Assembly: GCA_965214945.1 (NCBI GenBank)
Contig: OZ244029.1
Coordinates: forward strand, 872,533-936,532
From: Acidimicrobiales bacterium
GTDB lineage: Bacteria > Actinomycetota > Acidimicrobiia > Acidimicrobiales > Aldehydirespiratoraceae
Length of the DNA stretch: 64,000 bases
Direction of reading: 5' to 3'
A model generated the notes under the pieces. That model had not been told where the DNA came from and did no database searches. It saw only the letters and a list, made by a program, of their open reading frames with translations. The translations under genes and the position numbers were made by a program. Positions 1,291 through 34,685 of the stretch are shown piece after piece (position 1 is the first letter of the stretch; each line of letters starts with the position of its first letter).

Positions 1291-1297
1291 GACTCAC

Positions 1298-1762: not shown

Positions 1763-1923
1763 AGCCTGCTGACGGTGGGCCGTGCCGAGACCAACTCTCG
1801 TTCAAGAAGAGGCCGTTCGGTTGCCAGCTAGTCCAGCAGCCCAGCGCTGAGGTGTAGCTCAGCCTCGGCATCGGACCCAGAAAGAAGGCAGTTGTGCGCA
1901 GGGTCACACCTTGCCTGGTTCGG

Positions 1924-2805
1924 TCATGACATGATCTGGAATCGGCGGACGAGGTCCAGGTTGAGTTCGAGTCCGAGCCTTGGTGAGGAACTCGATCATG
2001 GTGATCTGCCTGCTGGCGGTCTGCATGTGGATGTTGTAGAAGTCCGAGATGGCCGAGGCGTAGATATAGGCAATCAGCAGAGCCCCGGCTAACTCGCACA
2101 TCACCGATATCTGGGTGATCTCGGTGAAGCCGCCGGCTCGGCTGATGTCGCAGTGCTGCAACAGCACCTTGGCGTTGTCGAGTCATTCCTTGGTCTCCCA
2201 GTGGCCGGTCGAGATTTCGCCTGTGTCGATGAGCAGCGGGCCGCCAGCTGGCGGTACCCCTCCATATCGTCGTGGCGCAGCGGGACCCTCGGCGAAGTAC
2301 ACCCGGTGGTCGTCCAGGTGGTTGGGGACCCACAGCGCCTACTGCCAGTGGGCCCAGCGATATCCGGGGTCGGTGCTGAGCACGATGTCGTCGCCGATCA
2401 TGGCCCGAGCCGGCCGACAAAGTCGACCACCTGGTGGTCGGCCATCTCGGTGAGCCCGACGATCGCCTCCATCTTTGCGAGGATGGCGTCGGTCGGCTCA
2501 CCTCTAGTGTCGCCGGGATACAGGGTCACATAGGGGTGGGCGCCGCTCTGGCGGGCGCCTCCCAGCAGCTGCCAAACCGGTCTCCAAGTTGCTTGCCGTC
2601 AGGTCGTACAAGGTGATGTCGACCGCGTACAGGGCGTTGATTAGCAGTCCTCTGTGGCCGTGGTAGAAGCTCGAGTGATAGATGATGTCGTAGATGCCCA
2701 GCATGTCTATCGGGTCCTTGCCGATGACGTGCCCTGGGTCGCTGTGCGGAGCTAGCGCAATCCCGACGGTTCGGAGTTCAGCGTGTGGGAGTGCTGGGTA
2801 GCCAT
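1924..2805 (-). pseudogene. Enolase-superfamily (mandelate racemase/dehydratase-like) pseudogene, repeat copy A
   Basis: The minus-strand translation gives family-typical blocks spread over several frames: INALYAVDITLYDLTGKQLG, then QLLGGARQSGAHPYVTLYPG in a shifted frame, IDTGEISTGHWETKE followed by a TGA, LLQHCDISRAGGFTEITQI, and the C-terminal LGLELNLDLVRRFQIMS-stop. Multiple frameshifts and in-frame stops. Confidence 0.7.
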
Positions 2806-3015
2806 CTCGACCGACCGCTGTACCTGGCGCTGTTTGCGCGCTGGGATCCGGGCATGATCGTGCGCCGACACAGCCACTACAGCCCGCACGTGTTGATAGT
2901 GCTTTTGGGCGAGTTCACCTGCTGCGATGTCCTCTGCGGGCCAGGCACCCACCTCGAACTGTCTTTCGGGGCGGACTTCGGGCCGTTCGCGGCCGGACCC
3001 GACGGAGTGGAGTTC
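1945..3015. repeat. Direct repeat copy A (enolase pseudogene + cupin segment), left flank of the DISARM operon
   Basis: By-eye alignment to 17406-18181. Shared runs include tccaggttgagttcgagtccgagccttggtg, gcatgtggatgttgtagaagtccgaga, gtacacccggtggtcgtccaggtggttggg, gtgctgagcacgatgtcgtcgccgatcatggccc and gctgtttgcgcgctgggatcc. Each copy has private deletions. Confidence 0.8.
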
Positions 3016-3341: not shown

Positions 3342-6300
3342 ATGAGCGTTGTCGAGGTGCGGGCACCAATGCCCGAGCTGCCTGATCCTGGGCAGGTGGT
3401 TGAGGTCCGGGGCTCGACTTGGGCTGTCGCCGACGTTCGTCCGCAGGGGCTGCCGCGTAGTCCGGCCGATGAGGCCACTGCGCAGCTCTCGCACGTGGTC
3501 GATCTCCAGTCGCTCGATGAGGACCGCTTCAATGAGATGTTGAGCGTCGTGTGGGAGCTGGAAGTTGGCCATACCGTCACTCCGGCTCAGGGTCTTCCGG
3601 AGCGAATATCGCCGGAGGCCTTCGATGATCCGGACACGCTTGCGGGGTTCATCGACGCGATGCGGTGGGGCGCCGTCACTTCTGCGGACCCGAACCGCTA
3701 CCAGGCGCCCTTCTGGTCGGGCGTGAACATCGAGGCGTATCAGATGGAACCGCTCCGTCGTGCGCTCAGTGCGCCGCGGACGAACCTGCTCTTGGCCGAC
3801 GACGTGGGCCTTGGCAAGACGATCGAAGCCGGACTCGTCATCCAGGAGCTATTGCTTCGCCACCGAGCCCGAACCGCAATAGTCGTGTGCCCTCCGAGTC
3901 TTCGGCTGAAGTGGCAAGACGAGATGCGGGAGAAGTTCGGCCTCGAGTTCGTCATCGTCGACAGCAGCCTGATGGCGCAGGTGCGCCGAACGCACGGTCT
4001 GCACGCCAACCCGTTCCTGATGTACCCCAGGGTCATCGTGTCTATGGCGTGGCTGCCGAAGATTCGAGCTCAGCGGCTCCTACGCGACCTGTTCTCACAG
4101 GCGGGCAATCCGAAGACGGGCAAGCGATTCGCGTTCGACATTCTCGTCGTGGACGAAGCCCACCACGTGGCACCTTCGAGTCCTTCAGCGGGCGCAGGTG
4201 GTCGTGGGTACGCAGTCGACACGCAGCGAACAGTTGCGGTCCGTCACCTCGCCGACAGATGCGAACACCGGCTGTTCCTGTCAGCCACTCCGCACAACGG
4301 CCATCCAGAATCGTTCACGGCCCTCATGGAGATGATAGATCCTCGGCGATTCTCACGGGGTGCACTGCTGGACAGCAACGCGCTGAAGGACGTGGCAGTC
4401 CGCCGGCTCAAGCGGGAACTCACCGGCAAGGGATTCAGGAGGCGATCTGTCGAGTCGCTCACGTTCACTCCCGCCGACGATGAGCAGGAGAAATTCACCA
4501 TTCTCGACGCGATCGTTTCGAAGAGCGCGAAGCTGAACGGGAGCAAGCCTGGTGGTGACATCGTGACGATGCTCCTCAAGAAGCGGTTCCTGTCCAGCCC
4601 CTTTGCCTTCGGCCAGACCCTCAGCCACTACCTCAGTTCCCGATTAGGCCGCGGCCTGAGCTACGACGACTACGACGACATCTTCGGTGAAGGCCAAGCC
4701 GACGAGGAGGAAGGGCTTTGGGAACAAGACGAGTCCGAGCGTCTTCACGAATCGAAGACGTCCGATCCTCTTAGCGCCGCCGAGCCCGGGCAGCTCGACT
4801 CGCTGATGGAGTGGGGCTTGAGCTACGAAAGCCGCCCGGACTCACGGCTCGAGGCTCTGCGCTCGTTCTTGAACGAGGTCTGCCGTCCCGATGGTCAGCA
4901 CTGGTCGCAAGAGCGGGTCGTGGTGTTCACCGAATACGCGCACACGGTCGACTGGCTGACGAGAGTGCTAATTCAGCAGGGATACGGTGACGTCATCGCC
5001 GTCATCCAGGGCTCGACCCCGCCGGAGGACCGCGAGTACATCCGCGCACAATTCACGGCGGACCCTTCGAAGGAGCCGGTGAGGGTGCTCCTGGCGACCG
5101 ACGCAGCTGGCGAAGGGATCGATCTGCAGGCTCATTGCCACCGGCTGGTCAACTTCGACATCCCGTTCAATCCCTCCCGGCTAGAGCAGAGGATCGGTCG
5201 CATCGACCGGTACGGGCAGACTCGTGATCCGCAGGTGTTCCATTTCGTGCCCACTTCGGATTCCTCCCTCTACGCAGCAGCCGCTGATTTCATGGCCCGA
5301 ATCGCAAGGAAGGTCGCCAACGTCGAAGCTGACCTTGGCTCGGTCAATCCGGTGATCGGCGGGGAGATCCACGAGCACTTCGCAGGGCGGACCCCGTCGA
5401 TACGCAAGGCGAGAGCCGTTGACGCCAATGAGGTGATCAACGCTGCGCTTGCAGGTGGCATCGAACTCAACGCACGACTGACCCAACTCGAACAGGGCTT
5501 TGACGAGTCGCGGACCGAAATGCATCTCGAACCCGGCAATCTGCGGCGCGTTGTCGACACTGCCTTGCGGATCGATCGCCAACCCCCGCTCATCTCCATC
5601 CCATACGATGAAGGCGATCCACAGGGTGTACGTGCCGACGAGTTTGCCGTGCGTCTCCTTCCTGACCGGGGTGAACAACCAGGGCCGCTAGCGTTTGCCG
5701 CGTACGAGGTCCCACAGGTATCTCGCCCCTGGCATGCCACCTTGAAGGGCCTGTACACGCGGCTCGCGCCGAACATAGCGCGTCCGATCACCTTCGACCA
5801 GGCTGTAGCAGAAGGTCGAGACGATCTGGTCTACGTCCACCTCGGCCACCCGCTGGTCCAGAAGGCGCAGAGGCTGCTGCGTAGCGCCCTGTGGAGCACA
5901 TCCTCGCCTCTGAACCGCGTGACAGCAGTCGTCGTAGACGATCTGCCGGAATCATTCGTCGCGGCAGTGACCCGAATGGTTCTCGTCGGTCGTGGTGGAG
6001 TCCGCCTGCATGAGGAGGTCTTCCTCGCAGGTGTACGTCTCCGAGGACGTCGAGCCATGGCCGAGGAGAAAGCCGAGGCCGCCCTCGACCAAGCGCTGGA
6101 CGCATCGCGCCTGACGTTCGCGGAGGACTCCGTGCGCTCACAGCTCTGCGTGCTTTGGAACACGCCCGACGCGCCCCTGCGAATCCGCCTTGAGGAATCG
6201 ATGCGAGCACGAGCCGCACGCCGACACGAGACAGTGATGGAGCAGCTCGCGCGTCGTAAAGCGGCCGATGCCCAACGGGCTCACGAGATCTATGCGGCAT

Positions 6301-6563
6301 TTCGAGCCAATCTGCGAGAGTCGCTCGACGCGCTCCGTAAAGCCGAGGAAGAGGAGGCGGCCAAGCTCTTCACCGATGACCAGCAGCACCAGCGACGGCG
6401 CGACATCGATGCGATGGGGCGACGGCTTGAGGAAATAGACGACGAAGAGGCCCGTGAGATCGAGGCGATCAGTGAGCGATACGCAGAGGTTAAGCCCCAT
6501 ACCACCGCTGCCGCAGTTGTCTTCGCGCTCACTCGTGCCGACGCTGCCGGATGGGGGAACTAA
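3342..6563 (+). CDS. drmD: SNF2-family helicase, DISARM class 1 DrmD
   Basis: SF2/SNF2 motifs: LLLADDVGLGKTIEAG (I), DILVVDEAHHVAP (II), LFLSATPHNGHPESF (III), VLLATDAAGEGIDLQ (V), FNPSRLEQRIGRIDRYGQT (VI). Start placed at ATG 3342 (MSVVEVRAP); the ORF track opens at 3276. First gene of the coupled five-gene operon. Confidence 0.8.
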   Translation: MSVVEVRAPMPELPDPGQVVEVRGSTWAVADVRPQGLPRSPADEATAQLSHVVDLQSLDEDRFNEMLSVVWELEVGHTVTPAQGLPERISPEAFDDPDTLAGFIDAMRWGAVTSADPNRYQAPFWSGVNIEAYQMEPLRRALSAPRTNLLLADDVGLGKTIEAGLVIQELLLRHRARTAIVVCPPSLRLKWQDEMREKFGLEFVIVDSSLMAQVRRTHGLHANPFLMYPRVIVSMAWLPKIRAQRLLRDLFSQAGNPKTGKRFAFDILVVDEAHHVAPSSPSAGAGGRGYAVDTQRTVAVRHLADRCEHRLFLSATPHNGHPESFTALMEMIDPRRFSRGALLDSNALKDVAVRRLKRELTGKGFRRRSVESLTFTPADDEQEKFTILDAIVSKSAKLNGSKPGGDIVTMLLKKRFLSSPFAFGQTLSHYLSSRLGRGLSYDDYDDIFGEGQADEEEGLWEQDESERLHESKTSDPLSAAEPGQLDSLMEWGLSYESRPDSRLEALRSFLNEVCRPDGQHWSQERVVVFTEYAHTVDWLTRVLIQQGYGDVIAVIQGSTPPEDREYIRAQFTADPSKEPVRVLLATDAAGEGIDLQAHCHRLVNFDIPFNPSRLEQRIGRIDRYGQTRDPQVFHFVPTSDSSLYAAAADFMARIARKVANVEADLGSVNPVIGGEIHEHFAGRTPSIRKARAVDANEVINAALAGGIELNARLTQLEQGFDESRTEMHLEPGNLRRVVDTALRIDRQPPLISIPYDEGDPQGVRADEFAVRLLPDRGEQPGPLAFAAYEVPQVSRPWHATLKGLYTRLAPNIARPITFDQAVAEGRDDLVYVHLGHPLVQKAQRLLRSALWSTSSPLNRVTAVVVDDLPESFVAAVTRMVLVGRGGVRLHEEVFLAGVRLRGRRAMAEEKAEAALDQALDASRLTFAEDSVRSQLCVLWNTPDAPLRIRLEESMRARAARRHETVMEQLARRKAADAQRAHEIYAAFRANLRESLDALRKAEEEEAAKLFTDDQQHQRRRDIDAMGRRLEEIDDEEAREIEAISERYAEVKPHTTAAAVVFALTRADAAGWGN

Positions 6564-9500
6564 TGGCTGCTGCTAACCGCCGACGCATCCCTGCCACCAG
6601 CAACGTGTCGGAACTTCATCGACGGTGGCTGGAGCTGGTCGACATCGAAGGTCCTTTTCTGGCCATCCCGCCACTCAAGAGAGTTTGGCCCAACGGGATC
6701 CCCAACTTTCGGTCCACCCACCCAGACCGGTTTGAAGTACTCAACCACGCCCTCAAAGACTTCGAAGCGGCTTGGGAGTCCCTGGACCGAGCTGAGGACA
6801 GCAGTAGCACGCTTGACGCGTACCGAGTGGCACGCGACAAGTGGGTCGAGACCGTATTGCGTGACGTGGTTGGTTGGGCCGAGTCCCTCGAATGGGGGGC
6901 CATTCCGGGCGTCGAGGCGCAGTCGCCGAACCGGGCAGTGACCGTGACTGCGCAAGGAGCCATTGTTGGTGCCGACGGCACGAGAGCGTTGGTACACGTC
7001 ACCGATGCGACGGAGTCGCTCCGCCAAACTCCGAACGATCTGTGGGCTGCGACACCAATAGATCGCCTCGATGCGCTTCTGCGAGAGAACGATGTCGAGA
7101 TCGGCATCGTCACTGACGGTCGATGGTGGGGACTCGTGTACGCCGGTGAGGGCCGCATGACGGCCTCCGGAGTGGTCGACGCGCTGACCTGGGTCGAGGA
7201 ACCCCGCACTCGCGATGCGTTCTTCACCCTCGCCGGGCGCCAGCACATCATCGGCGGAGATCCGACTGAGAGACTCCCGGTGCTGTTTGCCGAGTCCGTC
7301 GCCGCTGCCGAGGAGATTACCGAGGCGCTTGGTTCCCAGGTCCGCCGCGCGGTCGAGTTGCTCATCCAGTCGTTCTCCGAATCGGCCTCAGAAGCTCGTC
7401 GACTCGGCAAACCAGATCCGTTACCAGATCGAACCCACGACACCTACGAGGCTGCGGTCACCGTGATGATGCGCGTGGTTTTCCTCCTCTTCGCTGAGGA
7501 GCGAGGTCTACTTCCCTCAGGCGAGCTGTTCGAACAGGGTTACGGCATCTCCAGAGAGCTAGACCGGCTCGACGCCGAGAGCACGCCCGGCGAGGAAGTG
7601 CTCGAAGCAACATCCCTGACCTGGCACCGGTTGCTAGCCACCAGCGGCGCGCTGTACAAGGGTGCGTCCCTTGAGAACCTGCGCATGCCCGCCTATGGAG
7701 GATCACTCTTTGACCCTGACCGGTTTGCCTTCCTCACCGCAATCACGGACGAAGGCACACTCGCCGTGGTGGTGTCAGATCGGGTGATGCTCCACGTCCT
7801 CCGGTCCGTCCAAGTGGCGACCGTGAGAGGCGAAGCTCGCCGTATCTCCTTTCGCGACATCGATGTCGAGCAGATCGGCTACATCTACGAAGGCCTCCTC
7901 GGATACACTTGCAAATCGGTTGATGAGACATATCTGGGCATTCTCGGAACGATGGGCGAGGAGCCTGAAATCCCGCTCGGGACCATCGAGCAGCTCGCTA
8001 GGGAGAACACGACGCCAGAGAAGCTGGCCGGTGCGATCCGCAAGTGGGTTAAGGAGAATCAGCCTTCAGCAAAGCCTGCAACCGCTGCCAAGATCGCCAA
8101 AGCCCTCCAGGCCGATGCCGACCCGTCAGTGGTCAGTGCGCTAGCCCAGACCGTTGCCGACAACTCAGAGCTTCTCAATCGCATCGCGCCCTGGCTAGGC
8201 CTGATCCGTCGCGATCTGCGAGGCCACCCCTTCGTCTTACGGGGGGGGGGGGGTCTCCTGGTCGCAGAGACCCCGTCACGGAGGAATGCAGGGGCGCATT
8301 ACACCCCGAAGTCGCTGGCTGAAGAGGTCGTTTTCCACACGCTCGAGCCTCTCTGCTACTCGCCTGGTCCGCACCAGACGAGCGACGAAGCGTCATGGCA
8401 GCTCCGGAGTTCTGACGAGCTGCTCAATCTCAAGGTCGCCGACATCGCTTGTGGCTCTGGCGCCTTCCTTGTGGCCGCAACTCGCTACTTGGCAGATCGA
8501 GTTGTCGAAGCCTGGATCAGTGAGGAACCGGCCAACGCTCAGCGGATGGATCTCCATACGCGGGCCAAGCGTCAGGTCGTCGCGAATTGCCTCTATGGAG
8601 CTGACATCAACGACATGGCCGTCGAGATGTGCAAGCTCTCCCTCTGGCTCGTCTCCCTCGATCGCGATCTGCCCTTCTCCTTCGTCGACGACAAAATCTT
8701 CCTAGGCAACTCGCTCTTGGGGCTCACCAGCCTCGATCAGCTTCGGAAGCTTCACATTGATCCGACGCGAGTCCCTATGGACCGCAGGTTCGACATCTTT
8801 GACGTCGATGTCGATGAGATCATTCACAAAGCTGTCAGTCTTCGAGAGCATCTATTGGGCGAGATTGACGACAACGACCCGGCGCGGAGCAGCGCGACTA
8901 AGCGCCGCCAGCATAATGAGTCGAAGAGTGTTACCTCCCCACTCCGCCAGATAGCGGATGGCATCATTGCTGCGGGTCTCCCTCTAGGCGGCAAGCCCGG
9001 TAGGGAACTTGACGCAGCCTATGTAAGCCTCCGGTGCGCCGTTAGGAATGCCTATCCTGATGATGACACTCACAAGGATGCAAGAGAGTTGGAGGCTCTG
9101 ATTGTGAGAGGTCTTACTCCGGCTGTCAAGACCGACTTCAAGCGATGGCAACCGCTCCATTGGCCAATCGAGGCCCCCGACGTGATCGTTGATCGCAGTG
9201 GCTTCGATGCAATTATCGGCAATCCTCCATTCCTGGGGGGCCAGAAACTCAGCGGGGCAATGGGCAGTGAGATCAGGGACTGGTTCGTTCACGTGCTGGC
9301 GAATGGAAAACGAGGTAGCGCCGACTTAGTTGCCTACTTCTTCCTTCGGATACTTGGTCTTCTCGCAGACAATGGCACCATTGGGCTAATCGCGACCAAC
9401 ACCATTGCTCAGGGGGTCACGAGGCAAGTTGGCCTTGACCAGATTGTGGATCAGGGATTGACCATCATGCGTTCGATCCAGAGCAGGCCATGGCCGGCAA

Positions 9501-10636
9501 CAAGCGCGAGCCTGGAGTTCGCCGCGGTCTGGGGTACCCAAAGCTCTGTTCTTTCAAGTGGGCTCCGCGTCAGTGACGGCGTACCGGTTGCCAAGATCTC
9601 GACATTCCTTGAGCCTGCAGGTCGGATTGAACAGGGGCCCGAGAAGCTTGTTCAGAACAAGAATGTTGTGTTCCAAGGATGCATCGTTTTGGGCAGCGGA
9701 TTTATTGTCGATCCGGAGGAGGCTATGGGATGGATCCAGAACGATCCATCCAACAAGGAAGTTCTCTTTCCTTACCTCAGCGGCGATGATCTTAATTCCC
9801 GGCCCAACTGCTCTGCATCTCGCTGGGTCATAGACTTTGCTGAAAGGACGGAGGAAGCGGCGCGCAAGTATGAAGGGCCGTTCAATAGAGTGGCTGAGAC
9901 CGTCCTGCCTGAGCGCAAAGGCAAGAACGATTCTGGAGCTCGGAAGTATTGGTGGCGCTTTCTTCGGCCACGACCAGCCCTCCGCTCGGCGATCGACGGA
10001 CTCAATGAAGTCATCGTCATTGCAGGTGTCAGCAAGACGGTCATGCCCGGAAGAGTGAATACTGGGACGGTCTTCCCCCACCACCTTGTAGTGTTCGCAT
10101 CTGAGTCATATTCGTTGCAGGCCTGCTTGTCGTCAAGCATCCACCAGATGTGGGCAATCATGTATGGGTCGACGATGGGATCCGGTCCGAGATACACCCC
10201 GGAACGCTGCTTCAAGCCCTTTCCATTGCCACCCGAGTCGGAAGCGTTGGCATCTATGGGAAGGATTCTTCATGGGGAGCGACGTGAGATCATGTTGCGC
10301 CGCCAATTGGGACTCACCGGTCTCTATAACTTGGTCAACAGTCCTGAGATCGGTGCCGAAGCTGACCCCGATGTTGCCCGAATGCGCCAGATCCACATCG
10401 AGCTTGATGAGGTTGTGATGGATGCCTACGGGTGGCCAGATGTCGCACTCGATCATGGCCATCACACGTATCGGCAGATGGAGCGGTGGACTGTCAGTCC
10501 GACTGCCCGGGTCGAGATACTCGACCGTCTCCTGGAGGAGAATCACCGTCGGGCTTCTAAGGAGTCGCCGAAGCCCAGAGCGATGAGCCACCACTCCAAG
10601 AAGGGTCGGAATGTAACAGAAGAGCTTTTCTCATGA
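6551..10636 (+). CDS. drmMI: Large Eco57I-like N6-adenine DNA methyltransferase, DISARM DrmMI
   Basis: GAHYTPKSLAEEVV, VADIACGSGAFLVAA (AdoMet motif I), YGADINDMAVEMCKLSLWL, FDAIIGNPPFLGGQK (catalytic NPPF). The start at 6551 (alternative ATG 6563) overlaps the drmD stop at 6561-6563. 1361 aa. Confidence 0.8.
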   Translation: MGELMAAANRRRIPATSNVSELHRRWLELVDIEGPFLAIPPLKRVWPNGIPNFRSTHPDRFEVLNHALKDFEAAWESLDRAEDSSSTLDAYRVARDKWVETVLRDVVGWAESLEWGAIPGVEAQSPNRAVTVTAQGAIVGADGTRALVHVTDATESLRQTPNDLWAATPIDRLDALLRENDVEIGIVTDGRWWGLVYAGEGRMTASGVVDALTWVEEPRTRDAFFTLAGRQHIIGGDPTERLPVLFAESVAAAEEITEALGSQVRRAVELLIQSFSESASEARRLGKPDPLPDRTHDTYEAAVTVMMRVVFLLFAEERGLLPSGELFEQGYGISRELDRLDAESTPGEEVLEATSLTWHRLLATSGALYKGASLENLRMPAYGGSLFDPDRFAFLTAITDEGTLAVVVSDRVMLHVLRSVQVATVRGEARRISFRDIDVEQIGYIYEGLLGYTCKSVDETYLGILGTMGEEPEIPLGTIEQLARENTTPEKLAGAIRKWVKENQPSAKPATAAKIAKALQADADPSVVSALAQTVADNSELLNRIAPWLGLIRRDLRGHPFVLRGGGGLLVAETPSRRNAGAHYTPKSLAEEVVFHTLEPLCYSPGPHQTSDEASWQLRSSDELLNLKVADIACGSGAFLVAATRYLADRVVEAWISEEPANAQRMDLHTRAKRQVVANCLYGADINDMAVEMCKLSLWLVSLDRDLPFSFVDDKIFLGNSLLGLTSLDQLRKLHIDPTRVPMDRRFDIFDVDVDEIIHKAVSLREHLLGEIDDNDPARSSATKRRQHNESKSVTSPLRQIADGIIAAGLPLGGKPGRELDAAYVSLRCAVRNAYPDDDTHKDARELEALIVRGLTPAVKTDFKRWQPLHWPIEAPDVIVDRSGFDAIIGNPPFLGGQKLSGAMGSEIRDWFVHVLANGKRGSADLVAYFFLRILGLLADNGTIGLIATNTIAQGVTRQVGLDQIVDQGLTIMRSIQSRPWPATSASLEFAAVWGTQSSVLSSGLRVSDGVPVAKISTFLEPAGRIEQGPEKLVQNKNVVFQGCIVLGSGFIVDPEEAMGWIQNDPSNKEVLFPYLSGDDLNSRPNCSASRWVIDFAERTEEAARKYEGPFNRVAETVLPERKGKNDSGARKYWWRFLRPRPALRSAIDGLNEVIVIAGVSKTVMPGRVNTGTVFPHHLVVFASESYSLQACLSSSIHQMWAIMYGSTMGSGPRYTPERCFKPFPLPPESEALASMGRILHGERREIMLRRQLGLTGLYNLVNSPEIGAEADPDVARMRQIHIELDEVVMDAYGWPDVALDHGHHTYRQMERWTVSPTARVEILDRLLEENHRRASKESPKPRAMSHHSKKGRNVTEELFS
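8241..8253 (+). repeat. G13 homopolymer tract inside drmMI (currently in frame, encodes GGGG)
   Basis: Counted directly: ttcgtcttac + 13 g + tctcctg. Translation across it is FVLRGGGGLLVAETPSRRNAGAHYTP. Confidence 0.9.
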
Positions 10637-13600
10637 CTGATGCGTCTGCTTCGGTGGGTTCTCAGACCAGTTACGACTTGCGATTCGAGTTAGACGGTTC
10701 GTCCTTCGCTGTGCGAGAGAATCTTGTCGACATCCTGGAACGCGAGCTGCTAGGGCCGATTCACGGATCAGAGGAGGTGCTTCCTATCAGCCCTCGGTCC
10801 CAATACCTGGTTGGTCACGTTGCTCCGGTGAAGCTCACCTCCGACGCAGCCAGTGAGGCGGTTGATTCTGGCTCAGAGGATCGCGGCGAGCTGATCGAGG
10901 TTCGTCTGGACACAACCGCGTTGGCCGAAGTTCCCGGTGTGCCAGCGTTTGCAGCTGATGACCAGAAAGCCGAGACCGAGGACGATGATGCCGAGGACCG
11001 CGCACCGAAGCAAGGCCTCATGATCCCGGCGTCGATGGGAATGCGCTTCCAGGTTCCCGCCGATTTGGAGTCGTTCACGGTATCGGCCTCATGGGGAACG
11101 TACGAGACCATTGAGACGGATCAGGTGACCAAGTCGGGACGTCCTGTTCGCCATTACAAGCGGATCCCGGTGGAGGAAGCGAGGTTAATTAGGTTGGCGG
11201 ATCTGGTTGCTGGCAGAACGAAGATCGTGGAGCTTCAGGATTCTGTTTGCCTTCGCCTTGACCGTTATGACGACAAGATACACGATCGGGTGCTAGTCGA
11301 GATCGCCCTGTGCAACGATCGCGAGACCCCGGACTCCATCCCGATAAGCATGTGGATGTTTCAGACCAAGCTCCGGGTAGACGCTGGCGGGGCGGAAGTG
11401 TTTTTGCCGGTGCGTGACGTGCTCGAACAGGACTGGCCAGAGCCCGACGACGAGGTGCAACAGCTCGACCTCCAATATCGAGACCGTCTGGAGTATGCGG
11501 TTGGGCGCACCTGCTCCGTGGACTGGGAGGTGCGCCAAGGATCGCGGCGGGCGACCGAAGTGTCGACGACCTGGCTCCCGATAGCTGAGACACCGCAGAC
11601 GCGGGCTCCGGACCGTGACAGGTCCATGTTGTCGATGGACGAGCTCGCCACCGTCACGCCGGCCAAGTTGCGCACCGGCCTAAGACCGCTGGTGGACGGC
11701 TATTGTGAATGGCTCGATCAACAGGAATCGAGAGCTAAGAAGCTGCCCGAGCACTGGCACGAGACCTGTGAGCAGGTCCTTTTGGAAGCTCGTCAGGCTC
11801 ACCAACGTCTTGCCGACGGGTTGGAGCACGTTGCGACCGAGCCCGAAGCGCTGCGTTGCTTCCGATTCATGAACCGGGTGATGCGTGACCAACGGATCGC
11901 TTCGCAAGTTGCCGAAGAGCGAGCGTCGGACTCATCGGTCACGATCGAGCAGGCCAGGCAAAGGGTGGACGCGCTGAGTGCCGGCGTGGCTTCGTGGCGC
12001 CCTTTCCAGTTGGCCTTCATTCTCATGCAACTCGAAGCGCTCACCGAGCCCACGACCGCCATCCGCAGCGCAGAGCATCAGGCCCGAGTCGAGTTGCTGT
12101 TCTTTCCGACGGGAGGCGGCAAAACCGAGGCCTACCTGGGTCTCGCTGCCTATGCCTTCGCGACCCGCCGCCGGCAGGGAGTTGTCGAGTCGGCCGAGGG
12201 ACCGCTGGACGGAGGCCTTGGTGTTGCGGTGCTGATGCGCTACACGCTGCGGCTGCTGACTGCGCAGCAGTTTCAGCGGGCAACGGCGCTTGTGTGCGCA
12301 GCAGAGCTAGCTCGCCGCGAGGACGAAGCGACCTGGGGCACAGAGCCATTCCGCATCGGTCTGTGGGTCGGGACCGATGTGAGCCCTAAGTGGTTCGAGG
12401 AAGCAGACAAGCAGCTCACCAGGGCCAACGAGTACGGCTCGCATCGCTTGACTGTCCTGCAGATTCAGCGCTGCCCGTGGTGCGGAACCCCGATCGCGGC
12501 AGCCCAGATCAAGGCCGACGCCACGCAGCGGCGGGTGTTCGTGTACTGCGGAGACGAGCTCGCCCGATGCCCGTTCGCCAAGGGCGGGGCCGTCGACGAG
12601 GGCCTGCCGGTGCTCACTGTCGACGAGGAGATATACCGTCTCGCTCCCGCGTTCGTCATCGCGACGGTGGACAAGTTCGCCCGCTTGGCCCGCGAGGGTG
12701 CAGCAGCGTCCCTGTTCGGCTATGTCGCCCGCCGCTGCGGTCGCCACGGCTACGTCCATCAGGACTATGCTGGGTGCAGCATCAGCAGAGCGCACCCGGC
12801 GGTCAAGGACGGTGATCGCATCGTCCATCCGCAGGCCACTGTGCGGCCTGTGGGGCGACTGCGGCCGCCGGACCTCATCATCCAGGACGAGCTGCACCTC
12901 ATCACCGGTGCGCTCGGCACGTCAGTCGGCCTGTTCGAGGTCGCGGTCGAGACTCTCGCCTCGTGGGAGACCGCCGACGGCAAGCCTGTGCGACCGATGA
13001 TCGTCGCCTCGACGGCAACGGTGCGCAATGCCCACGAGCAGGTGCGAGGCCTCTATGGGCGCCAAGTCCAGATCTTCCCGCCCCAGGTGCTCGATGCTGC
13101 CGACACCTACTTCTCCCAAGAGGTGCCGATCGACCGCGCCAACCCTGGGCGCCGCTATCTGGGCGTCAGCGCTCAAGGAGTCCGCCTTTCGAGCGCCGAG
13201 ATCCGCGTGGCCGAGGTCTTGCTCTCCGCGGGGCAACTGCTCTTCGACGAAGCCGGCGAGGCAGCCGACCCGTACATGACGCTGGTCGGGTACTTCAACG
13301 CAACCCGGGAGCTGGCGGGCATGGCCCGCTACATGGCTGATGACGTCGCCAACCGAGTCGGCAACCCGCGTATGGGCTCCGGCTTTCCCCGCAGGTACGG
13401 CACCGGCTTTGGAAGTTTGTCCATCGCGGAGCTCACCTCACGCATCGCTTCCGCCGAGATCGGCCGCACCCTCGACCGACTCGGGCTCGAGTTCGATCCC
13501 GACTTCGACGCTACCCAGCAACGCCTGGACCGCATCAAAGCCGCAAACGCCGGCAAGAAGCGGCCCATCCGCACGAACATCCCCTTCGACGTGGTGCTGG

Positions 13601-14367
13601 CAACCTCGATGCTCGGGGTCGGCGTCGACGTCCAGCGGCTCGGCCTCATGCTGGTGGTCGGCCAGCCGAAGAACACCGCCGAGTACATCCAGGCGTCCTC
13701 CCGCGTGGGACGCGAAGCATCCGGTCGCCCCGGCCTTGTGGTGGCGCTGGGCAACTGGGCGCGGCCGCGAGACCTTGCGCACTTCGAGCAGTTCCGGCAC
13801 TACCACGAGACGTTCTACGCCCAGGTCGAGGCTCAGTCGGTCACACCGTTCTCGACGACCTCGCTCGATCGGGGCCTTGATGGCCTGCTCGTGAGCGTCG
13901 CTCGCGTGGTGCAAGCGACCGAGGCCAAGGGTCTGTCGCCCGAGCAGGACGCCTGGCGGATCCGCGACCAGCGGGCCTCAATCGACGCCATCTGCGATCG
14001 GCTCAGGAAGCGGATCGCCGTGGCGGCCCGAGACGACGCCGCCTCCAACCATGCCGGCGATGTGCTCGTCAACCGCATCGATCGATGGAACGAGCGCGCC
14101 AAGCGAGCAACGGAGATGAACAAGACTCTGGTGTACGAACGGATCGGGCAGGGAGAGGAGTTCCTCCCTCTGATCATCAGCCCCGAGAACGCCAAGGCCA
14201 GCGCCGGCGATTCCCTCCAAGCCCCGTTCGTGATCGCGAACTCCATGCGCGAAGTGCAGCCTGAGATCAATGTGCTCGTCAGCCCCCTAGCGGAGCGGCT
14301 GTTCATGCTGAGGCCTGATGGCGCGCCCGAGTGGACCCTCCCGGTTGGAGAGGACGACGATGACTGA
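10633..14367 (+). CDS. drmA: DExH helicase, DISARM DrmA
   Basis: LLFFPTGGGKTEAYLGL (Walker A), DLIIQDELHLITGALGT (DExH), ATSMLGVGVDVQRLGLMLVVGQPKNTAEYIQASSRVGR (motifs V-VI), and a Zn-ribbon-like CPWCGTPI...YCGDELARCPF. ATGA overlap with the drmMI stop. Confidence 0.8.
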   Translation: MTDASASVGSQTSYDLRFELDGSSFAVRENLVDILERELLGPIHGSEEVLPISPRSQYLVGHVAPVKLTSDAASEAVDSGSEDRGELIEVRLDTTALAEVPGVPAFAADDQKAETEDDDAEDRAPKQGLMIPASMGMRFQVPADLESFTVSASWGTYETIETDQVTKSGRPVRHYKRIPVEEARLIRLADLVAGRTKIVELQDSVCLRLDRYDDKIHDRVLVEIALCNDRETPDSIPISMWMFQTKLRVDAGGAEVFLPVRDVLEQDWPEPDDEVQQLDLQYRDRLEYAVGRTCSVDWEVRQGSRRATEVSTTWLPIAETPQTRAPDRDRSMLSMDELATVTPAKLRTGLRPLVDGYCEWLDQQESRAKKLPEHWHETCEQVLLEARQAHQRLADGLEHVATEPEALRCFRFMNRVMRDQRIASQVAEERASDSSVTIEQARQRVDALSAGVASWRPFQLAFILMQLEALTEPTTAIRSAEHQARVELLFFPTGGGKTEAYLGLAAYAFATRRRQGVVESAEGPLDGGLGVAVLMRYTLRLLTAQQFQRATALVCAAELARREDEATWGTEPFRIGLWVGTDVSPKWFEEADKQLTRANEYGSHRLTVLQIQRCPWCGTPIAAAQIKADATQRRVFVYCGDELARCPFAKGGAVDEGLPVLTVDEEIYRLAPAFVIATVDKFARLAREGAAASLFGYVARRCGRHGYVHQDYAGCSISRAHPAVKDGDRIVHPQATVRPVGRLRPPDLIIQDELHLITGALGTSVGLFEVAVETLASWETADGKPVRPMIVASTATVRNAHEQVRGLYGRQVQIFPPQVLDAADTYFSQEVPIDRANPGRRYLGVSAQGVRLSSAEIRVAEVLLSAGQLLFDEAGEAADPYMTLVGYFNATRELAGMARYMADDVANRVGNPRMGSGFPRRYGTGFGSLSIAELTSRIASAEIGRTLDRLGLEFDPDFDATQQRLDRIKAANAGKKRPIRTNIPFDVVLATSMLGVGVDVQRLGLMLVVGQPKNTAEYIQASSRVGREASGRPGLVVALGNWARPRDLAHFEQFRHYHETFYAQVEAQSVTPFSTTSLDRGLDGLLVSVARVVQATEAKGLSPEQDAWRIRDQRASIDAICDRLRKRIAVAARDDAASNHAGDVLVNRIDRWNERAKRATEMNKTLVYERIGQGEEFLPLIISPENAKASAGDSLQAPFVIANSMREVQPEINVLVSPLAERLFMLRPDGAPEWTLPVGEDDDD

Positions 14368-16429
14368 CCCGCTCACCGGTCCAGAAGCTCCGAGCATGAT
14401 GCTGCATGATCCAGGTCAGACGCTCGACCCGCTGGCGGACGCCGAAGACGCGGCAGTCAAGAATCGGGCCAAGGTCGGTTCAGCTCGGCCTTCCTCGCTC
14501 CTCTACACCTACGGGCCGGGCGCCATCATGGATCTTCCGGGCTTCTCGGTCATGCCCGCCGGGCTTGGCGACTGGGAGCCCATCTGGCAGCGACGAGAGT
14601 CGGTCCCCACGATCACCGAGCCCCGTCTGCTCGACGTGGTGCGACTCCACCTGGGACCGCAGGTAGACGCTCTGCGCCCTTTCCCGTGGCAGCCGAAGAC
14701 GAGCCCCTCGTCTTCTGACGGCAGTGATCTCGGGATACCAGCCCGTGTCTTTCCCCAGTGGCTGCGGTGCACCGGCTGTGACTACCTCGGCCCGATTTCA
14801 CGCTTTCGCTACACCAACACCCACCCATTCCGTCCCGACCTGGCCCAGTTCACCCACGCCCCCTGCCCCGGCCGCGGCGGACAACGCCGCACCTCGAGCC
14901 GGAAGGAGCGCGGGAGGCCGGCGGTTCCGGCCCAACACCTGCTGACCTGCGTCAACGGCCATCTCGACGAGTTCCCCTACGACCTCTGGGTCCACCAAGG
15001 CGACAGATGCCCGAAAGTCGAAGTGCCGAGCCTGAAGATGCGCGACGCCAATGTCGGCGGCTCCAATGTCGGCTCCACCATCATCTGCGAAGCCTGCAGA
15101 GCGAGGCGGGGAATGGCGGAGGCACAAGGACGGGCAGGCCGCGAGAAGCTCCCGCAGAAGTGCCGCGGGCGCCACCCTCACCTGAACGCCTTCGACGGCT
15201 CCTGCGATGCGCAGCCGGCGCTGATCATGATGGGTGCGTCGAACCTCTGGTTCCCTTCGATCCAGTCGATCATCGTTATGCCCCGGACTGAGGCCGAAGG
15301 GCAGTCCGCCCTCGCTGACAGCTTGCGGCTCCAACTGGACGTTGAGCAGATTCGCCGATCTGGCCAGGATCTTGACTGCATCGTGGCGCTTGCCAGGGCT
15401 ATGCGGGGCCTTGACACGGCTGACATCACCGACCAGGAGCTCAAGGAGGCGATTTCGGAAGTACTGGCACCGGCAGACACCGAGGAGGATCGACAGGAGA
15501 AGCTGGCGGCCTGGGATCCCATCGAACTGCTCGTGCCGGAGTGGGACTACCTGCAGAAGCCGGCCCTGTTCCCGCAGCAGGAGAACACCAGCGGCCTGAT
15601 GGTCACCGAGGAGCAGCGCCACGCAGACCTCGACACCCGCATCACACGGGTGGTCGCCGTCAACCAGATGAAGAAGGTCAACGCCGTCCTCGGTTTCACG
15701 AGGCTCGACGAGATGGACCGGGTCAATGATCTGGCGAGCCGCCTGGTCAAGCTGACCCGCGACGCCCGACCGACCTGGGTACCGGCGACCGAAGACCGCG
15801 GCGAGGGTGTCTTCCTGCAGCTCGACCCCGAGAAGGTCGCTGCCTGGGAGGAGAAGATTCTCGTCTCGGACTTGTGGGACGCCCATCGCAAGGCACACCG
15901 GCGCAATTTTCAGCGGCGATTCTCCGAGACCGCGAAGCTCGTCGACCCCGACGTGCGCCTGGCCGCGCCGCGGTATTGGCTGCTGCACACCCTCGCTCAC
16001 GTGCTGATCCGCGAGATGGCCATGTCGTGCGGCTACGGCGCTGCGAGCCTCACCGAGCGCATCTATGGTTGGGCTTCATCGCCGCAGCGAGACGCGGCGG
16101 CAGGCCTCCTGATCTGCACGACCGCTTCGGACAGCGAAGGGACCCTTGGCGGTCTGGTCGCCCTGTCTGAGCCTTCTAGGCTGCAGGGGCTCATCAGATC
16201 GGCACTGCGGCGAGCCGGCAGATGCTCGTCTGATCCGGTCTGTGCCATGCGCACTCCGAGCGACCCCGAGGACTTTCTGCACGGAGCGGCTTGTCACTGC
16301 TGTGCGTTCGCATCGGAGACCTCGTGCGAGAGGGCCAACCGGTTCCTCGACCGCCGCCTGCTGCTGACCCTCCCATCCGCCGATGGCGCCACCGTGCCGG
16401 GCTTCTTCGGGACGGTCGATGCCATCTGA
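14360..16429 (+). CDS. drmB: DUF1998-domain protein, DISARM DrmB
   Basis: C-terminal DUF1998-type motif HGAACHCCAFASETSCERANRFLDRRLL, plus Cys clusters CTGCDY and CPGRGG...CVNGH. The ATG at 14360 overlaps the drmA stop (14365-14367); the ORF track opens at 14318. Confidence 0.75.
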   Translation: MTDPLTGPEAPSMMLHDPGQTLDPLADAEDAAVKNRAKVGSARPSSLLYTYGPGAIMDLPGFSVMPAGLGDWEPIWQRRESVPTITEPRLLDVVRLHLGPQVDALRPFPWQPKTSPSSSDGSDLGIPARVFPQWLRCTGCDYLGPISRFRYTNTHPFRPDLAQFTHAPCPGRGGQRRTSSRKERGRPAVPAQHLLTCVNGHLDEFPYDLWVHQGDRCPKVEVPSLKMRDANVGGSNVGSTIICEACRARRGMAEAQGRAGREKLPQKCRGRHPHLNAFDGSCDAQPALIMMGASNLWFPSIQSIIVMPRTEAEGQSALADSLRLQLDVEQIRRSGQDLDCIVALARAMRGLDTADITDQELKEAISEVLAPADTEEDRQEKLAAWDPIELLVPEWDYLQKPALFPQQENTSGLMVTEEQRHADLDTRITRVVAVNQMKKVNAVLGFTRLDEMDRVNDLASRLVKLTRDARPTWVPATEDRGEGVFLQLDPEKVAAWEEKILVSDLWDAHRKAHRRNFQRRFSETAKLVDPDVRLAAPRYWLLHTLAHVLIREMAMSCGYGAASLTERIYGWASSPQRDAAAGLLICTTASDSEGTLGGLVALSEPSRLQGLIRSALRRAGRCSSDPVCAMRTPSDPEDFLHGAACHCCAFASETSCERANRFLDRRLLLTLPSADGATVPGFFGTVDAI

Positions 16430-17122
16430 TCCGTTCGCTGATCTGGGGACCTTCCTCACCGCAACCGAGGCAGTCGGGATCGCAGTCCAGCTCTCCACCG
16501 GTCAGCACTCATCAGTCGCTCTCCGGGAGGTGAATCCAGCCCGTCGCGAGAAAGCCAAGGAACTGATGAGCACCGCCGGACTCGGACACGATGACGTCGA
16601 CCGATCCTCAGCCGTCCTTCATGCGATCGCGAGAGCCAAGAGTCTCGGGAGTCAGTTGACACCGGTGTGGATGATGCCCGGGAACGAGGCAACAGCCGGC
16701 CGTCTCACCGGTGAGTTCACCGGCTCATCCAAGCAGCTAGCCAGTCGGTGACGTGCGCGACTTATAACTTCGAGCCCACGTCGCAGATGTGGACAGCGCT
16801 TCGGGAAGCGGCCGATCAGCCTGGGATCGTCGTCGCCGTCTACCTCGACGCCGACAAAGCGGACGCTGGGAAAGTCAAGAGCCAGCTTGGCCGCGCATCC
16901 GTATACCAATCCGCCGTCTTGCCTGATGGCAACCAGGTAGTCAGCCACGCCAAGTTCGTCGTCATCGACCATGAGATCGTCCTCGTCACGAGCGCGAACT
17001 TCTCATTCAGCGCCGAGAACCGCAACGTCGAGTTCGGCTTGCTCGTCCAAGATGCCGGACTTGCTCGTTCAGTTGAAATGACGATGGAGTCGAAGCAGGG
17101 CACCCTCTACGAATCAGCGTAG
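16419..17122 (+). pseudogene. drmC: PLD-family nuclease DrmC, split by one frame change
   Basis: HxK(x)4D motif in SHAKFVVIDHEIVLVTSANFS. The N-terminal half reads in the frame of ATG 16419 and stops at 16749-16751. The C-terminal half reads in another frame that is open from 16715 (VHRLIQAASQSVTCATYNFEPTS). The switch lies between 16715 and 16748, near the short repeat tcaccgg-tgagt-tcaccgg. The start overlaps the drmB stop by 11 nt. Confidence 0.7.
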
Positions 17123-17360: not shown

Positions 17361-17405
17361 GTGTCGGTCAAGGCATCACCGGGTCGGGCCACACGTCAGC
17401 TGGCT

Positions 17406-18181
17406 GCGGAGGAGATCCAGGTTGAGTTCGAGTCCGAGCCTTGGTGCGGTTGGGGGTGTGATCCAGCCATCGATGATCTCGGGCATAGCAAGGTGGATGA
17501 GGTCGCGTCGCAGGATCTAGGTGACCGCTTCGATGGTGCGGAACTCGATGCTGGGGATCTGCATGCTGGTGATCCGCATGTGGATGTTGTAGAAGTCCGA
17601 GACGGCCGAGGCGTAGTTGTGGGGCATCAGCCCATATCGCCGTGGCGCAGCGGGGCCTGGCGAAGTACACCCGGTGGTCGTCCAGGTGGTTGGGAACCCA
17701 CAGCGCCTCCTGTCAGTGGGCCCAGCGGTATCCGGGGTCGGTGCTGAGCACGATGTCGTCGCCGATCATGGCCCGGAGCCGGCCGACAAGGTCGACTAAC
17801 TGGTGGTCGGGTGTTTGGTGAGCTCGACGATCGCTCCCATCTTGTCGAGGATGGCGTCGTCGGCTCACCTATAGTTTCGCCGGGATACAGGGTCACATAG
17901 GGGCGTGCGCCGCTCTGGCGGGCGCCTCCGGTTCGGTGTCCAGCGTGTGGGAGCAGTGGGCGGTCTTCTCGACCGACCCGCTGTACCGGGCGCTGTTTGC
18001 GCGCTGGGATCCCGGCATGATCGTGCGACGGCACGGCCACTACAGCCCGCACGTGCTGATAGTGCTTTCGGGCGATTTCACCTGCGGCGACGTCCTCTGC
18101 GGGCCAGGCACCCACCTTGAACTGTCTTTCGGGGCGGACTTCGGGCCGTTCGTGGCCGGATCCGACGGGTCGGTGGAATCG
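17406..18181. repeat. Direct repeat copy B (degenerate enolase + cupin remnants), right flank of the DISARM operon
   Basis: Same orientation as copy A. It lacks about 210 nt that copy A has (around 2560-2770). It retains about 90 nt that A has lost but copy C (34.5 kb) has. The cupin remnant reads ALFARWDPGMIVRRHGHYSPHVLIVLSGDFTCGDVLCGPGTHLELSFG. Confidence 0.8.
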
Positions 18182-34634: not shown

Positions 34635-34685
34635 TCGAGGACAATGCTGAGAAGGCGCAAAAGCTGATGGCGAAAGCTGACAGAA

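What the first reader, a model, noticed from the sequence alone, without database searches (positions are those of the whole stretch)
3342..17122. Complete class 1 DISARM gene set as one translationally coupled operon
Five consecutive same-strand genes carry the five domain types that define class 1 DISARM. These are an SNF2 helicase (DEAH, GxGKT), a large Eco57I-like NPPF adenine methylase, a DExH helicase, a DUF1998 protein and a PLD HxK nuclease. Every junction overlaps: drmD/drmMI share the stop region, drmMI/drmA is ATGA, drmA/drmB overlap by 8 nt and drmB/drmC by 11 nt. The system is a described one. This copy still stands out because it combines a hypermutable tract in the methylase, a broken drmC and flanking direct repeats (see the separate findings).
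Basis: partly seen in the sequence, partly recalled or inferred. Interest (0 to 1): 0.6.

Follow-up and report, generated by a model that had tools for sequence, protein, structure and literature searches.

The report
Class 1 DISARM phage-defence operon
This is an ordinary, well-conserved class 1 DISARM anti-phage operon from an uncultured high-GC actinobacterium, unusual only in having a run of 13 G's inside its methylase gene (a possible on/off switch) and a one-base deletion that splits its dispensable nuclease gene.

Summary
The observation and the interpretation both hold. Window 3342-17122 (+) carries drmD, drmMI, drmA, drmB and drmC in the canonical class 1 DISARM order. All four junctions overlap, by 1, 4, 8 and 11 nt.

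- **Family scores.** PADLOC gives DrmD 1267, DrmMI 1612, DrmA 997 and DrmB 231 bits. The NCBIfam equivalogs for DrmD, DrmA and DrmB pass their cut-offs. DrmA and DrmB match the solved Serratia DrmAB complex (7S9V).
- **Rivals.** BREX and type IIG/ISP readings score far lower.
- **Relatives.** Of 160 related loci, mostly Actinomycetota, 87 hold all five genes, all colinear. Overlapping junctions are the norm there, so the architecture is not special.
- **drmC.** It is split by a 1-nt deletion (TTCCAC to TTCAC, 16716-16720). None of 105 relatives has this. Restoring one C lifts the score above the equivalog cut-off.
- **G13 tract.** It lies in frame at 8241-8253 of drmMI, upstream of all methylase motifs. 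The 58 orthologues compared have runs of only 2-5 G at that site. A change of one or two bases truncates the protein.
- **Flanks.** The operon is bracketed by decayed copies of an enolase-superfamily gene.

Verdict: a new member of a known kind. Phase variation through the G tract is plausible but could not be tested, because no close relatives were found.

The parts
3342..6563 (+). drmD, an SNF2-like helicase of 1073 aa, with GLGKT at residue 156 and DEAH at residue 271
   Evidence: PADLOC DrmD scores 1267.5 bits. NCBIfam NF038317 scores 1214.5 against a cut-off of 610. Pfam finds SNF2-rel_dom and Helicase_C.
6563..10636 (+). drmMI, an N6-adenine methyltransferase of 1357 aa, with motif I ADIACGSG at residue 628, NPPF at residue 887 and a C-terminal MmeI-like target recognition domain
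   Evidence: PADLOC DrmMI scores 1612 bits, aligned end to end. Pfam finds Eco57I, MmeI_Mtase and N6_Mtase, plus MmeI_TRD at 24.1 bits, just under its 27-bit cut-off. The nearest solved structure is MmeI, a weak match.
8241..8253 (+). G13 homopolymer inside drmMI. It encodes Arg-Gly-Gly-Gly-Gly and is in frame as assembled, upstream of all methyltransferase motifs.
   Evidence: Fifty-eight orthologues have G runs of only 2-5 at the same site. With G11 or G14 the product is 585-586 aa, and with G12 or G15 it is 713-714 aa. All of these are out of frame before motif I.
10633..14367 (+). drmA, a DExH helicase of 1244 aa, with GGGKT at residue 494 and DELH at residue 752
   Evidence: NCBIfam NF038325 scores 1375.3 against a cut-off of 950. 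PADLOC DrmA scores 997 bits. It matches PDB 7S9V_A (DrmA) at E = 2.5e-227.
14360..16429 (+). drmB, a DUF1998/MZB protein of 689 aa, with a GGAGAGG Shine-Dalgarno-like sequence 8 nt upstream of its ATG
   Evidence: NCBIfam DrmB_fam scores 660.7 against a cut-off of 240. Pfam PF09369 scores 29.4 bits. It matches PDB 7S9V_B (DrmB) at E = 4.8e-117. The exact 689-aa product is on record as a called gene.
16419..16751 (+). drmC 5' fragment: 100 native codons, then 10 out-of-frame codons and a TGA stop
   Evidence: It matches PADLOC DrmC PDLC02609 profile positions 2-102 of 241 and NF038319 at 24.7 bits.
16716..16720 (+). Site of the 1-nt deletion in drmC. The window reads TTCAC where relatives read TTC CAC, at the GEF|HRL junction.
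   Evidence: Three-frame translation compared with ten relatives. The two halves are in one frame in 105 of 105 relatives. Inserting one C gives a 234-aa protein that scores 151.1 against the 133 cut-off.
16748..17122 (+). drmC 3' fragment in the -1 frame. It holds the whole PLD domain with HAK, and a GTG at 16748 overlaps the upstream TGA.
   Evidence: Pfam PLDc_2 scores 52 bits, matching profile positions 15-129 of 132. PADLOC DrmC matches profile positions 113-239 of 241 at 180.6 bits. HAK is at residue 67.
1915..3005 (.). Left flanking repeat: a decayed enolase-superfamily gene on the minus strand plus the 5' part of a small + strand ORF (2785-3099)
   Evidence: MR_MLE_C scores 45.4 bits in a frame that contains stops.
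17395..18170 (.). Right flanking repeat. Aligned blocks are 86-93% identical to the left copy and are separated by indels. A third short fragment lies at 34422-34636.

Best explanation
**Identity.** The locus is a class 1 DISARM defence operon (drmD-drmMI-drmA-drmB-drmC). It is orthologous to the experimentally studied Serratia sp. SCBI system and belongs to a clade spread through Actinomycetota. It sits in a defence island of an uncultured high-GC bacterium.

**Mechanism, inferred from homology.**
- DrmMI puts m6A on a short non-palindromic motif in host DNA to mark self.
- The DrmA helicase and the DrmB DUF1998 protein form a complex that is kept off by a trigger loop in DrmA.
- That complex is switched on by incoming DNA with a 5' overhang, and less so when the DNA is methylated.
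- DrmD (SNF2) assists.
- The PLD nuclease DrmC is accessory.

**Expression.** The five genes are probably expressed as one transcript with coupled translation, since every junction overlaps.

**Peculiarities of this copy.**
- drmC is split by a 1-nt deletion, which by precedent should not abolish defence.
- drmMI carries a G13 tract. Slipping by one base would remove the whole methylase domain and probably lower translation of the downstream genes.
For: **Shown here.**
- Domain and family membership.
- Catalytic motifs.
- Near full-length matches to the solved DrmA and DrmB.
- Gene order and overlaps.
- The same colinear five-gene set in 87 of the 160 related loci retrieved, that is in all 87 that hold all five genes.
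- Overlapping junctions in 82-122 relatives per junction.
- Four large ORFs, about 13 kb in all, with no lesion.
- A repaired DrmC passes its equivalog cut-off.

**From the literature.**
- The same paper reports m6A at ACACAG by DrmMI and methylation acting as an off switch.
- DrmAB autoinhibition by a trigger loop and activation by 5'-overhang DNA come from PMC9142583.
Against: - No function was measured. The methylation motif, the transcript structure and translational coupling are all inferred.
- drmC is not intact. As assembled, the locus therefore does not encode a full-length DrmC.
- Identity to the Serratia proteins is moderate, so details such as the trigger loop may differ.
- The length of a 13-nt homopolymer in an assembly is uncertain. 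The methylase could actually be out of frame in most cells.
Confidence: 0.9

Rival explanations
1. The system is a decaying, non-functional remnant. The drmC frameshift and the unstable G tract would be early steps of pseudogenisation, and the flanking repeats would be a route to deletion.
For: - The drmC frameshift is unique among 105 relatives.
- Pseudogenes surround the operon: decayed enolase-family copies and a fragmented C5 methylase.
- Direct repeats that could recombine and delete the operon bracket it.
Against: - drmD, drmMI, drmA and drmB together span about 13 kb without a single stop or frameshift, and all catalytic motifs are intact.
- drmC is dispensable in both DISARM classes.
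- The G tract is in frame as assembled.
Confidence: 0.15
2. The drmC break is a consensus error of the assembly rather than a mutation, and the exact tract length of 13 may be too. In the cell, drmC would be intact.
For: - The window comes from a single contig of 3,150,762 bp. I infer a long-read metagenome assembly from this; the record does not say so. Indel errors occur in such data.
- Two other genes in the window are split exactly at long poly-C tracts.
Against: - The deletion lies in a CC dinucleotide, not in a long homopolymer.
- About 21 kb of the DISARM and Druantia ORFs show no other frameshift, which argues for a low indel error rate outside homopolymers.
Confidence: 0.3
3. The gene set is really a BREX system, or a type IIG/ISP restriction-modification system, with accessory helicases.
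For: - DrmMI is homologous to type IIG/IIL enzymes. The PADLOC REase_MTase_IIG model scores 669 bits, Pfam finds MmeI and Eco57I domains, and there is a weak PDB MmeI hit.
- DrmD hits BrxHI/HII at 221 bits.
Against: - The DrmMI model scores 1612 bits and the DrmD model 1267 bits.
- PglX equivalogs score 22-34 bits against cut-offs of 400-900.
- No PglZ, BrxC or BrxL hit was found among the neighbouring ORFs tested.
- The helicase and the methylase are separate genes, followed by DrmA, DrmB and DrmC equivalogs.
Confidence: 0.02

Closest known systems
Class 1 DISARM of Serratia sp. SCBI (DrmAB structures 7S9V and 7S9W; bioRxiv 10.1101/2021.12.28.474362; PMC9142583)
   Same: - The same five gene families occur in the same order.
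- DrmA and DrmB align over nearly their full length with the solved chains.
- The methylase is of the NPPF adenine type.
   Different: - The Serratia locus also carries a cytosine methylase, drmMII. None is adjacent here.
- drmC is frameshifted here.
- drmMI carries a G13 tract here.
- The host is an actinobacterial-type high-GC genome.
Class 2 DISARM (Bacillus paralicheniformis; Ofir et al. 2018, as cited)
   Same: The drmA-drmB-drmC core is shared, and drmC is dispensable.
   Different: Class 2 uses the C5 methylase drmMII, sometimes with drmE, and lacks drmD and drmMI. This locus has drmD and drmMI.
Actinomycetota and metagenome relatives found here (for example L001, an Acidimicrobiales MAG, and L004, Rhodococcus sp. 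KRD162)
   Same: Proteins are 60-84% identical. Gene order and the overlapping junctions are the same.
   Different: - All 105 relatives with both halves of drmC have it in one frame.
- None of the 58 orthologues compared has a long G run at the tract site.
- Twenty-five of 130 relatives carry an inverted copy of the drmMI 3' end between drmMI and drmA. In L014, the one checked, a serine recombinase gene lies beside it. The window lacks this arrangement.
PglX of the Streptomyces coelicolor Pgl system (BREX type 2)
   Same: In both, the methyltransferase gene of a defence system carries an in-ORF G tract. In Pgl, changes in tract length switch the system on and off (PMC4365076).
   Different: It is a different defence system. 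The tract is G8 there and G13 here, and switching is demonstrated there but not here.
Programmed inversions in class 1 DISARM drmMI, and the poly-G type IIG enzyme Cj0031 (PMC9881135)
   Same: The methylase is the component targeted by a diversity-generating mechanism.
   Different: Inversions swap the specificity domain. A poly-G tract inside drmMI would be an on/off switch and is not reported in that paper.

Membership tests
Class 1 DISARM | drmA: helicase with pfam00271, DrmA clade | tested here: met
   Pfam Helicase_C is found. NF038325 scores 1375.3 against a cut-off of 950. The protein matches 7S9V_A at E = 2.5e-227.
Class 1 DISARM | drmB: DUF1998 (pfam09369) protein directly after drmA | tested here: met
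   PF09369 scores 29.4 against a cut-off of 24.2. NF038324 scores 660.7 against a cut-off of 240. The protein matches 7S9V_B at E = 4.8e-117.
Class 1 DISARM | drmC: PLD-domain (pfam13091) gene after drmB | tested here: met
   PLDc_2 scores 52 bits with HAK present. The PADLOC DrmC profile is covered at positions 2-102 and 113-239 of 241. The gene is present but frameshifted.
Class 1 DISARM | drmD: SNF2-like helicase (pfam00176) preceding the core | tested here: met
   SNF2-rel_dom scores 41.9 bits. NF038317 scores 1214.5 against a cut-off of 610.
Class 1 DISARM | drmMI: N6-adenine methylase between drmD and drmA | tested here: met
   PADLOC DrmMI scores 1612 bits. Pfam finds Eco57I, N6_Mtase and MmeI_Mtase. 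NPPF and motif I are present.
Class 1 DISARM | Gene order drmD-drmMI-drmA-drmB-drmC on one strand | tested here: met
   The order is the same in 87 of 87 relatives that hold all five genes.
Class 1 DISARM | m6A marking of a host motif, and protection against phage or plasmids | not testable with these tools
   This needs methylome data and challenge assays.
Fully intact class 1 DISARM (all five ORFs uninterrupted) | drmC reading frame uninterrupted | tested here: not met
   A 1-nt deletion lies at 16716-16720. The fragments score 24.7 and 103.2 against a cut-off of 133, and the repaired protein scores 151.1.
BREX | PglX methylase together with PglZ and BrxC | tested here: not met
   PglX equivalogs score 22-34 bits against cut-offs of 400-900. 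No PglZ or BrxC hit was found among the neighbours tested.
Type IIG / ISP restriction-modification | A single polypeptide combining nuclease, methylase and target recognition (plus helicase in ISP), acting alone | tested here: not met
   The best IIG model scores 669 bits against 1612 for DrmMI. The helicases are separate genes with DISARM equivalog scores.
Phase-variable defence methyltransferase (PglX or Cj0031 type) | Long simple-sequence tract inside the ORF, upstream of the catalytic motifs | tested here: met
   G13 lies at 8241-8253, at residues 559-563, before motif I at residue 628.
Phase-variable defence methyltransferase (PglX or Cj0031 type) | Tract length varies between cells or strains, with matching on and off phenotypes | not testable with these tools
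   No same-species sequence was found. The exact pattern scan gave 0 hits, and the best metagenome relatives are 70-74% identical.

The most novel reading that the evidence does not exclude
**The reading.** The G13 tract makes this a phase-variable DISARM.
- Slipped-strand changes of one base truncate DrmMI before its catalytic domain.
- Because the genes overlap, those changes would also lower expression of drmA, drmB and drmC. Cells would then switch the whole defence on and off.

**Genome context.** The switch would be one of a set of contingency loci in this uncultured actinobacterium. The same window holds two paralogous glycosyltransferase-like membrane protein genes, each split exactly at a tract of 13-14 C's. 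Phage defence and candidate phage receptors might therefore vary together.

**Precedent.** On/off switching of a DISARM methylase by a homopolymer has not been reported in the papers I could search. Those papers report only inversion-based specificity switching.
Probability: 0.4. Interest if true: 0.55.

Novelty: new member of a known kind. Interest (0 to 1): 0.3.

Why it matters
As a DISARM locus it adds little, because the same operon is common across Actinomycetota.

The useful points are comparative.
- **Methylase variation.** In this clade the methylase is repeatedly the target of variation mechanisms. An inverted copy of the drmMI 3' end is present in about a fifth of relatives, with a recombinase gene beside it in the one checked. 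This copy has a poly-G tract instead.
- **A natural drmC knock-out.** The drmC break sits next to four intact genes. This fits the experimental finding that DrmC is dispensable.

If the tract really switches, it would give a simple natural system for two questions. One is how a methylation-based defence tolerates loss and regain of its methylase. The other is whether defence and surface structures co-vary in environmental actinobacteria.

Tried and rejected
- **Exact look-ups.** Look-ups of the encoding contig for DrmA and DrmB found no record. The source organism could therefore not be named. All that is known is that the contig is 3,150,762 bp and is held by NCBI and ENA.
- **Same-species search.** A scan of metagenome contigs for the two flanks of the G tract, allowing any tract length, gave 0 hits. 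A protein-guided scan gave relatives of at most 74% identity. Tract-length polymorphism could therefore not be tested.
- **Promoter and terminator scan.** The scan of 2900-17700 gave nothing on the + strand. This is consistent with one operon but is uninformative for a high-GC organism.
- **Flanking minus-strand ORFs.** The long ORFs at 1713-2501, 2752-3369 and 17627-18247 gave no family hits, and their translations are Arg/Pro-rich. I rejected them as genes. The repeats are instead frameshifted enolase-superfamily remnants.
- **PADLOC mad3/mad8 hits on 23061-24656.** I rejected these. NCBIfam shows a sugar ABC transporter ATPase.
- **Programmed -1 frameshifting in drmC.** I considered and rejected this. 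There is no slippery heptamer at GGTGAGTTCACC, and 105 of 105 relatives are in frame.
- **An inverted drmMI cassette in the window.** I looked for one and found none.
Full report
**Observation**

The region 3342-17122 holds five consecutive + strand reading frames:
- drmD, 3342-6563.
- drmMI, 6563-10636.
- drmA, 10633-14367.
- drmB, 14360-16429.
- drmC, in two frames: 16419-16751 and 16748-17122.

Reading the junctions directly confirms the overlaps:
- drmD/drmMI is TAATG, a 1-nt overlap, or 13 nt if the upstream ATG at 6551 is used.
- drmMI/drmA is ATGA.
- drmA/drmB overlap by 8 nt.
- drmB/drmC overlap by 11 nt.

The chosen starts are supported in three ways.
- Relatives align from residue 1.
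- The profile coordinates agree.
- For drmB, there is a GGAGAGG sequence 8 nt upstream, and the exact 689-aa product is on record as a called gene.

- DrmD has GLGKT and DEAH.
- DrmMI has ADIACGSG and NPPF.
- DrmA has GGGKT and DELH.
- DrmC has HAK.

**Identity**

| Protein | PADLOC best model, bits | NCBIfam equivalog, bits vs cut-off | Pfam |
|---|---|---|---|
| DrmD | 1267.5 | 1214.5 vs 610 | SNF2-rel_dom, Helicase_C |
| DrmMI | 1612.1 | no hit to a DrmMI model | Eco57I, MmeI_Mtase, N6_Mtase |
| DrmA | 997.5 | 1375.3 vs 950 | Helicase_C |
| DrmB | 231.4 | 660.7 vs 240 | PF09369 (MZB, the former DUF1998) |
| DrmC halves | 98.9 and 180.6 | 24.7 and 103.2 vs 133 | PLDc_2 |

The two DrmC halves cover positions 2-102 and 113-239 of one 241-position PADLOC profile.

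DrmA and DrmB match the solved Serratia DrmAB complex 7S9V over nearly their full length (E = 2.5e-227 and 4.8e-117).

- BREX PglX models score 22-34 bits against cut-offs of 400-900.
- BrxHI/HII scores 221 bits against 1267 for DrmD.
- The best type IIG model scores 669 bits against 1612 for DrmMI.

The domain list and gene order are those given as the definition of class 1 DISARM in bioRxiv 10.1101/2021.12.28.474362.

**Relatives**

Protein-guided scans of genomes and metagenomes returned 160 related loci.
- Most are from Actinomycetota. The closest are Acidimicrobiales and Microthrixaceae MAGs, at 70-84% protein identity.
- Eighty-seven loci hold all five genes, and in all 87 the genes are colinear on one strand.
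- Overlapping junctions are the rule in the clade: 122 of 130 for drmD/drmMI, 82 of 98 for drmMI/drmA, 112 of 116 for drmA/drmB and 92 of 105 for drmB/drmC. The 11-nt drmB/drmC overlap seen here is the commonest value.

The compact, presumably translationally coupled layout is therefore a family trait, not a peculiarity of this copy. Coupling itself is inferred.

**The drmC break**

In frame 0 the window reads ...GRLTGEF and then runs out of frame to a TGA stop. The -1 frame continues HRLIQAASQSVTCATYNFEPTSQMW..., exactly as in relatives. The DNA reads TTCAC where TTC CAC is expected, so one C of a CC pair is missing at 16716-16720.

- In 105 of 105 relatives with both halves, the halves are in one frame.
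- Inserting one C gives a 234-aa protein that scores 151.1 bits, above the 133-bit cut-off.
- The 3' fragment keeps the whole PLD domain and the HxK motif. A GTG at 16748 overlaps the TGA stop, but I see no Shine-Dalgarno-like sequence before it, so re-initiation is speculative.
- The deletion is not in a long homopolymer, and about 21 kb of the neighbouring large ORFs carry no other frameshift. I therefore lean towards a real mutation, about 70:30, but an assembly error cannot be excluded.
- drmC is not required for defence in either DISARM class, so the break need not disable the system.

**The G13 tract**

Positions 8241-8253 read CGG GGG GGG GGG GGT (Arg-Gly4), in frame. The tract lies about 65 codons upstream of motif I and about 325 codons upstream of NPPF.

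- At the homologous site, the 58 orthologues compared encode two Gly or similar residues, with G runs of only 2-5 nt. The window protein is one residue longer there.
- A G or C run of 13 or more is expected 0.02 times in this window.
- The 2.7 Mb of related loci contain only three runs of 9 or more. The 64-kb window has six such runs, of 9-19 nt.
- With G11 or G14 the product is 585-586 aa, and with G12 or G15 it is 713-714 aa. All of these lack the methylase motifs.

There are precedents. The G tract in pglX switches the Streptomyces Pgl system on and off (PMC4365076). Poly-G switching is known in the type IIG enzyme Cj0031, and inversion-based switching is known in DrmMI (PMC9881135). I could not test polymorphism, because no same-species sequence was found. 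The length of such a tract in a consensus sequence is also uncertain.

**A comparative point**

In 25 of 130 relatives, an inverted partial copy of the drmMI 3' end lies between drmMI and drmA.
- The copy covers residues about 905-1340, including the target recognition domain.
- In L014, the one relative examined, a serine recombinase gene lies next to it.
- This is the programmed-inversion arrangement described in PMC9881135.
- The window has no such cassette.

The methylase thus seems to be a recurrent target of variation in this clade, by different means.

**Surroundings**

The operon is bracketed by direct repeats at about 1915-3005 and 17395-18170. Aligned blocks are 86-93% identical and are separated by indels. 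A third short fragment lies at 34422-34636.
- The repeats are decayed copies of an enolase-superfamily gene on the minus strand. MR_MLE_C scores 45.4 bits in a frame that contains stops.
- They also include the start of a small + strand ORF.
- Recombination between the repeats would delete the 14.4-kb DISARM segment. This is an inference.

The wider window is a defence island interleaved with sugar-metabolism genes.
- A PbeC/DndD-like ATPase is cut by the window start.
- A Druantia-like DruF/DruE pair lies at 36074-44546.
- Methyltransferases and an OLD/AriA-like ATPase are also present.

Third-position GC is 0.67-0.80 in the DISARM genes and 0.78-0.82 in the core genes.

**Mechanism**

The mechanism is inferred from the Serratia work.
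- DrmMI marks self DNA with m6A.
- DrmAB is autoinhibited by a trigger loop in DrmA and is activated by incoming DNA with a 5' overhang. Methylation dampens this activation.
- DrmD assists, and DrmC is accessory.

None of this was measured here.

**Verdict**

The finding is correct, and the object is a new member of a known kind. The only feature with some potential is the G13 tract. I give it about 0.4 probability of being a working on/off switch.

Noticed in passing
window 57294-61270, with tracts at 57410-57428, 58359-58372, 59407-59416 and 60203-60215; also 63609-63617: Two paralogous membrane protein genes resemble PMT/GT-C glycosyltransferases. The Pfam PMT hit is weak (E = 5e-4, below the cut-off), and their N-terminal parts are 49% identical. 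Each gene is split into two frames exactly at a long poly-C tract (C14 and C13). A G19 tract lies near the 5' end of the first gene, and a C10 tract lies upstream of the second. This looks like a set of contingency loci for surface structures, or like homopolymer lengths miscalled by the assembly.
   Followed up: partly
L014 7305-9946; the same pattern occurs in 25 of 130 related loci (for example L002, L017, L028, L033, L043): Between drmMI and drmA, relatives carry an inverted partial copy of the drmMI 3' end with an MmeI-type target recognition domain. In L014, the one examined, a serine recombinase gene (Resolvase + Recombinase domains) lies next to it. This is a programmed-inversion cassette for methylase specificity, and it is absent from the window.
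   Followed up: partly
window 1915-3005, 17395-18170 and 34422-34636: Three decayed copies or fragments of one enolase-superfamily (MR_MLE_C) gene lie on the minus strand. Two bracket the DISARM operon. The third lies beside a fragmented C5 DNA methylase (34952-35894, minus strand), just before the Druantia-like genes. This may be a trace of repeated insertion or duplication at one target.
   Followed up: partly
window 36074-44546: A Druantia-like pair is present. DruF scores 743 bits over 1030 aa, and DruE scores 1531 bits over 1788 aa. Both are intact and have lower third-position GC (0.63-0.64) than the core genes. Downstream lie a methyltransferase (45604-47040) and an OLD/NsnB/AriA-like ATPase (51303-53120).
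   Followed up: no
window 18477-19526 and 19523-21850: Two + strand ORFs of 349 and 775 aa overlap by 4 nt and lie directly after the right repeat. Their codon-position GC pattern is that of coding sequence. They have no hit in Pfam, PADLOC or NCBIfam, and the 775-aa one has none among PDB sequences either. They are a candidate unknown two-gene module in a defence island.
   Followed up: partly
window 1-1762: The C-terminal part of a PbeC/DndD-like SMC-type ATPase runs off the left end of the window; its frame is open from base 1. It is followed by an overlapping 175-aa ORF with no family hit. Another defence system probably lies just upstream of DISARM.
   Followed up: no
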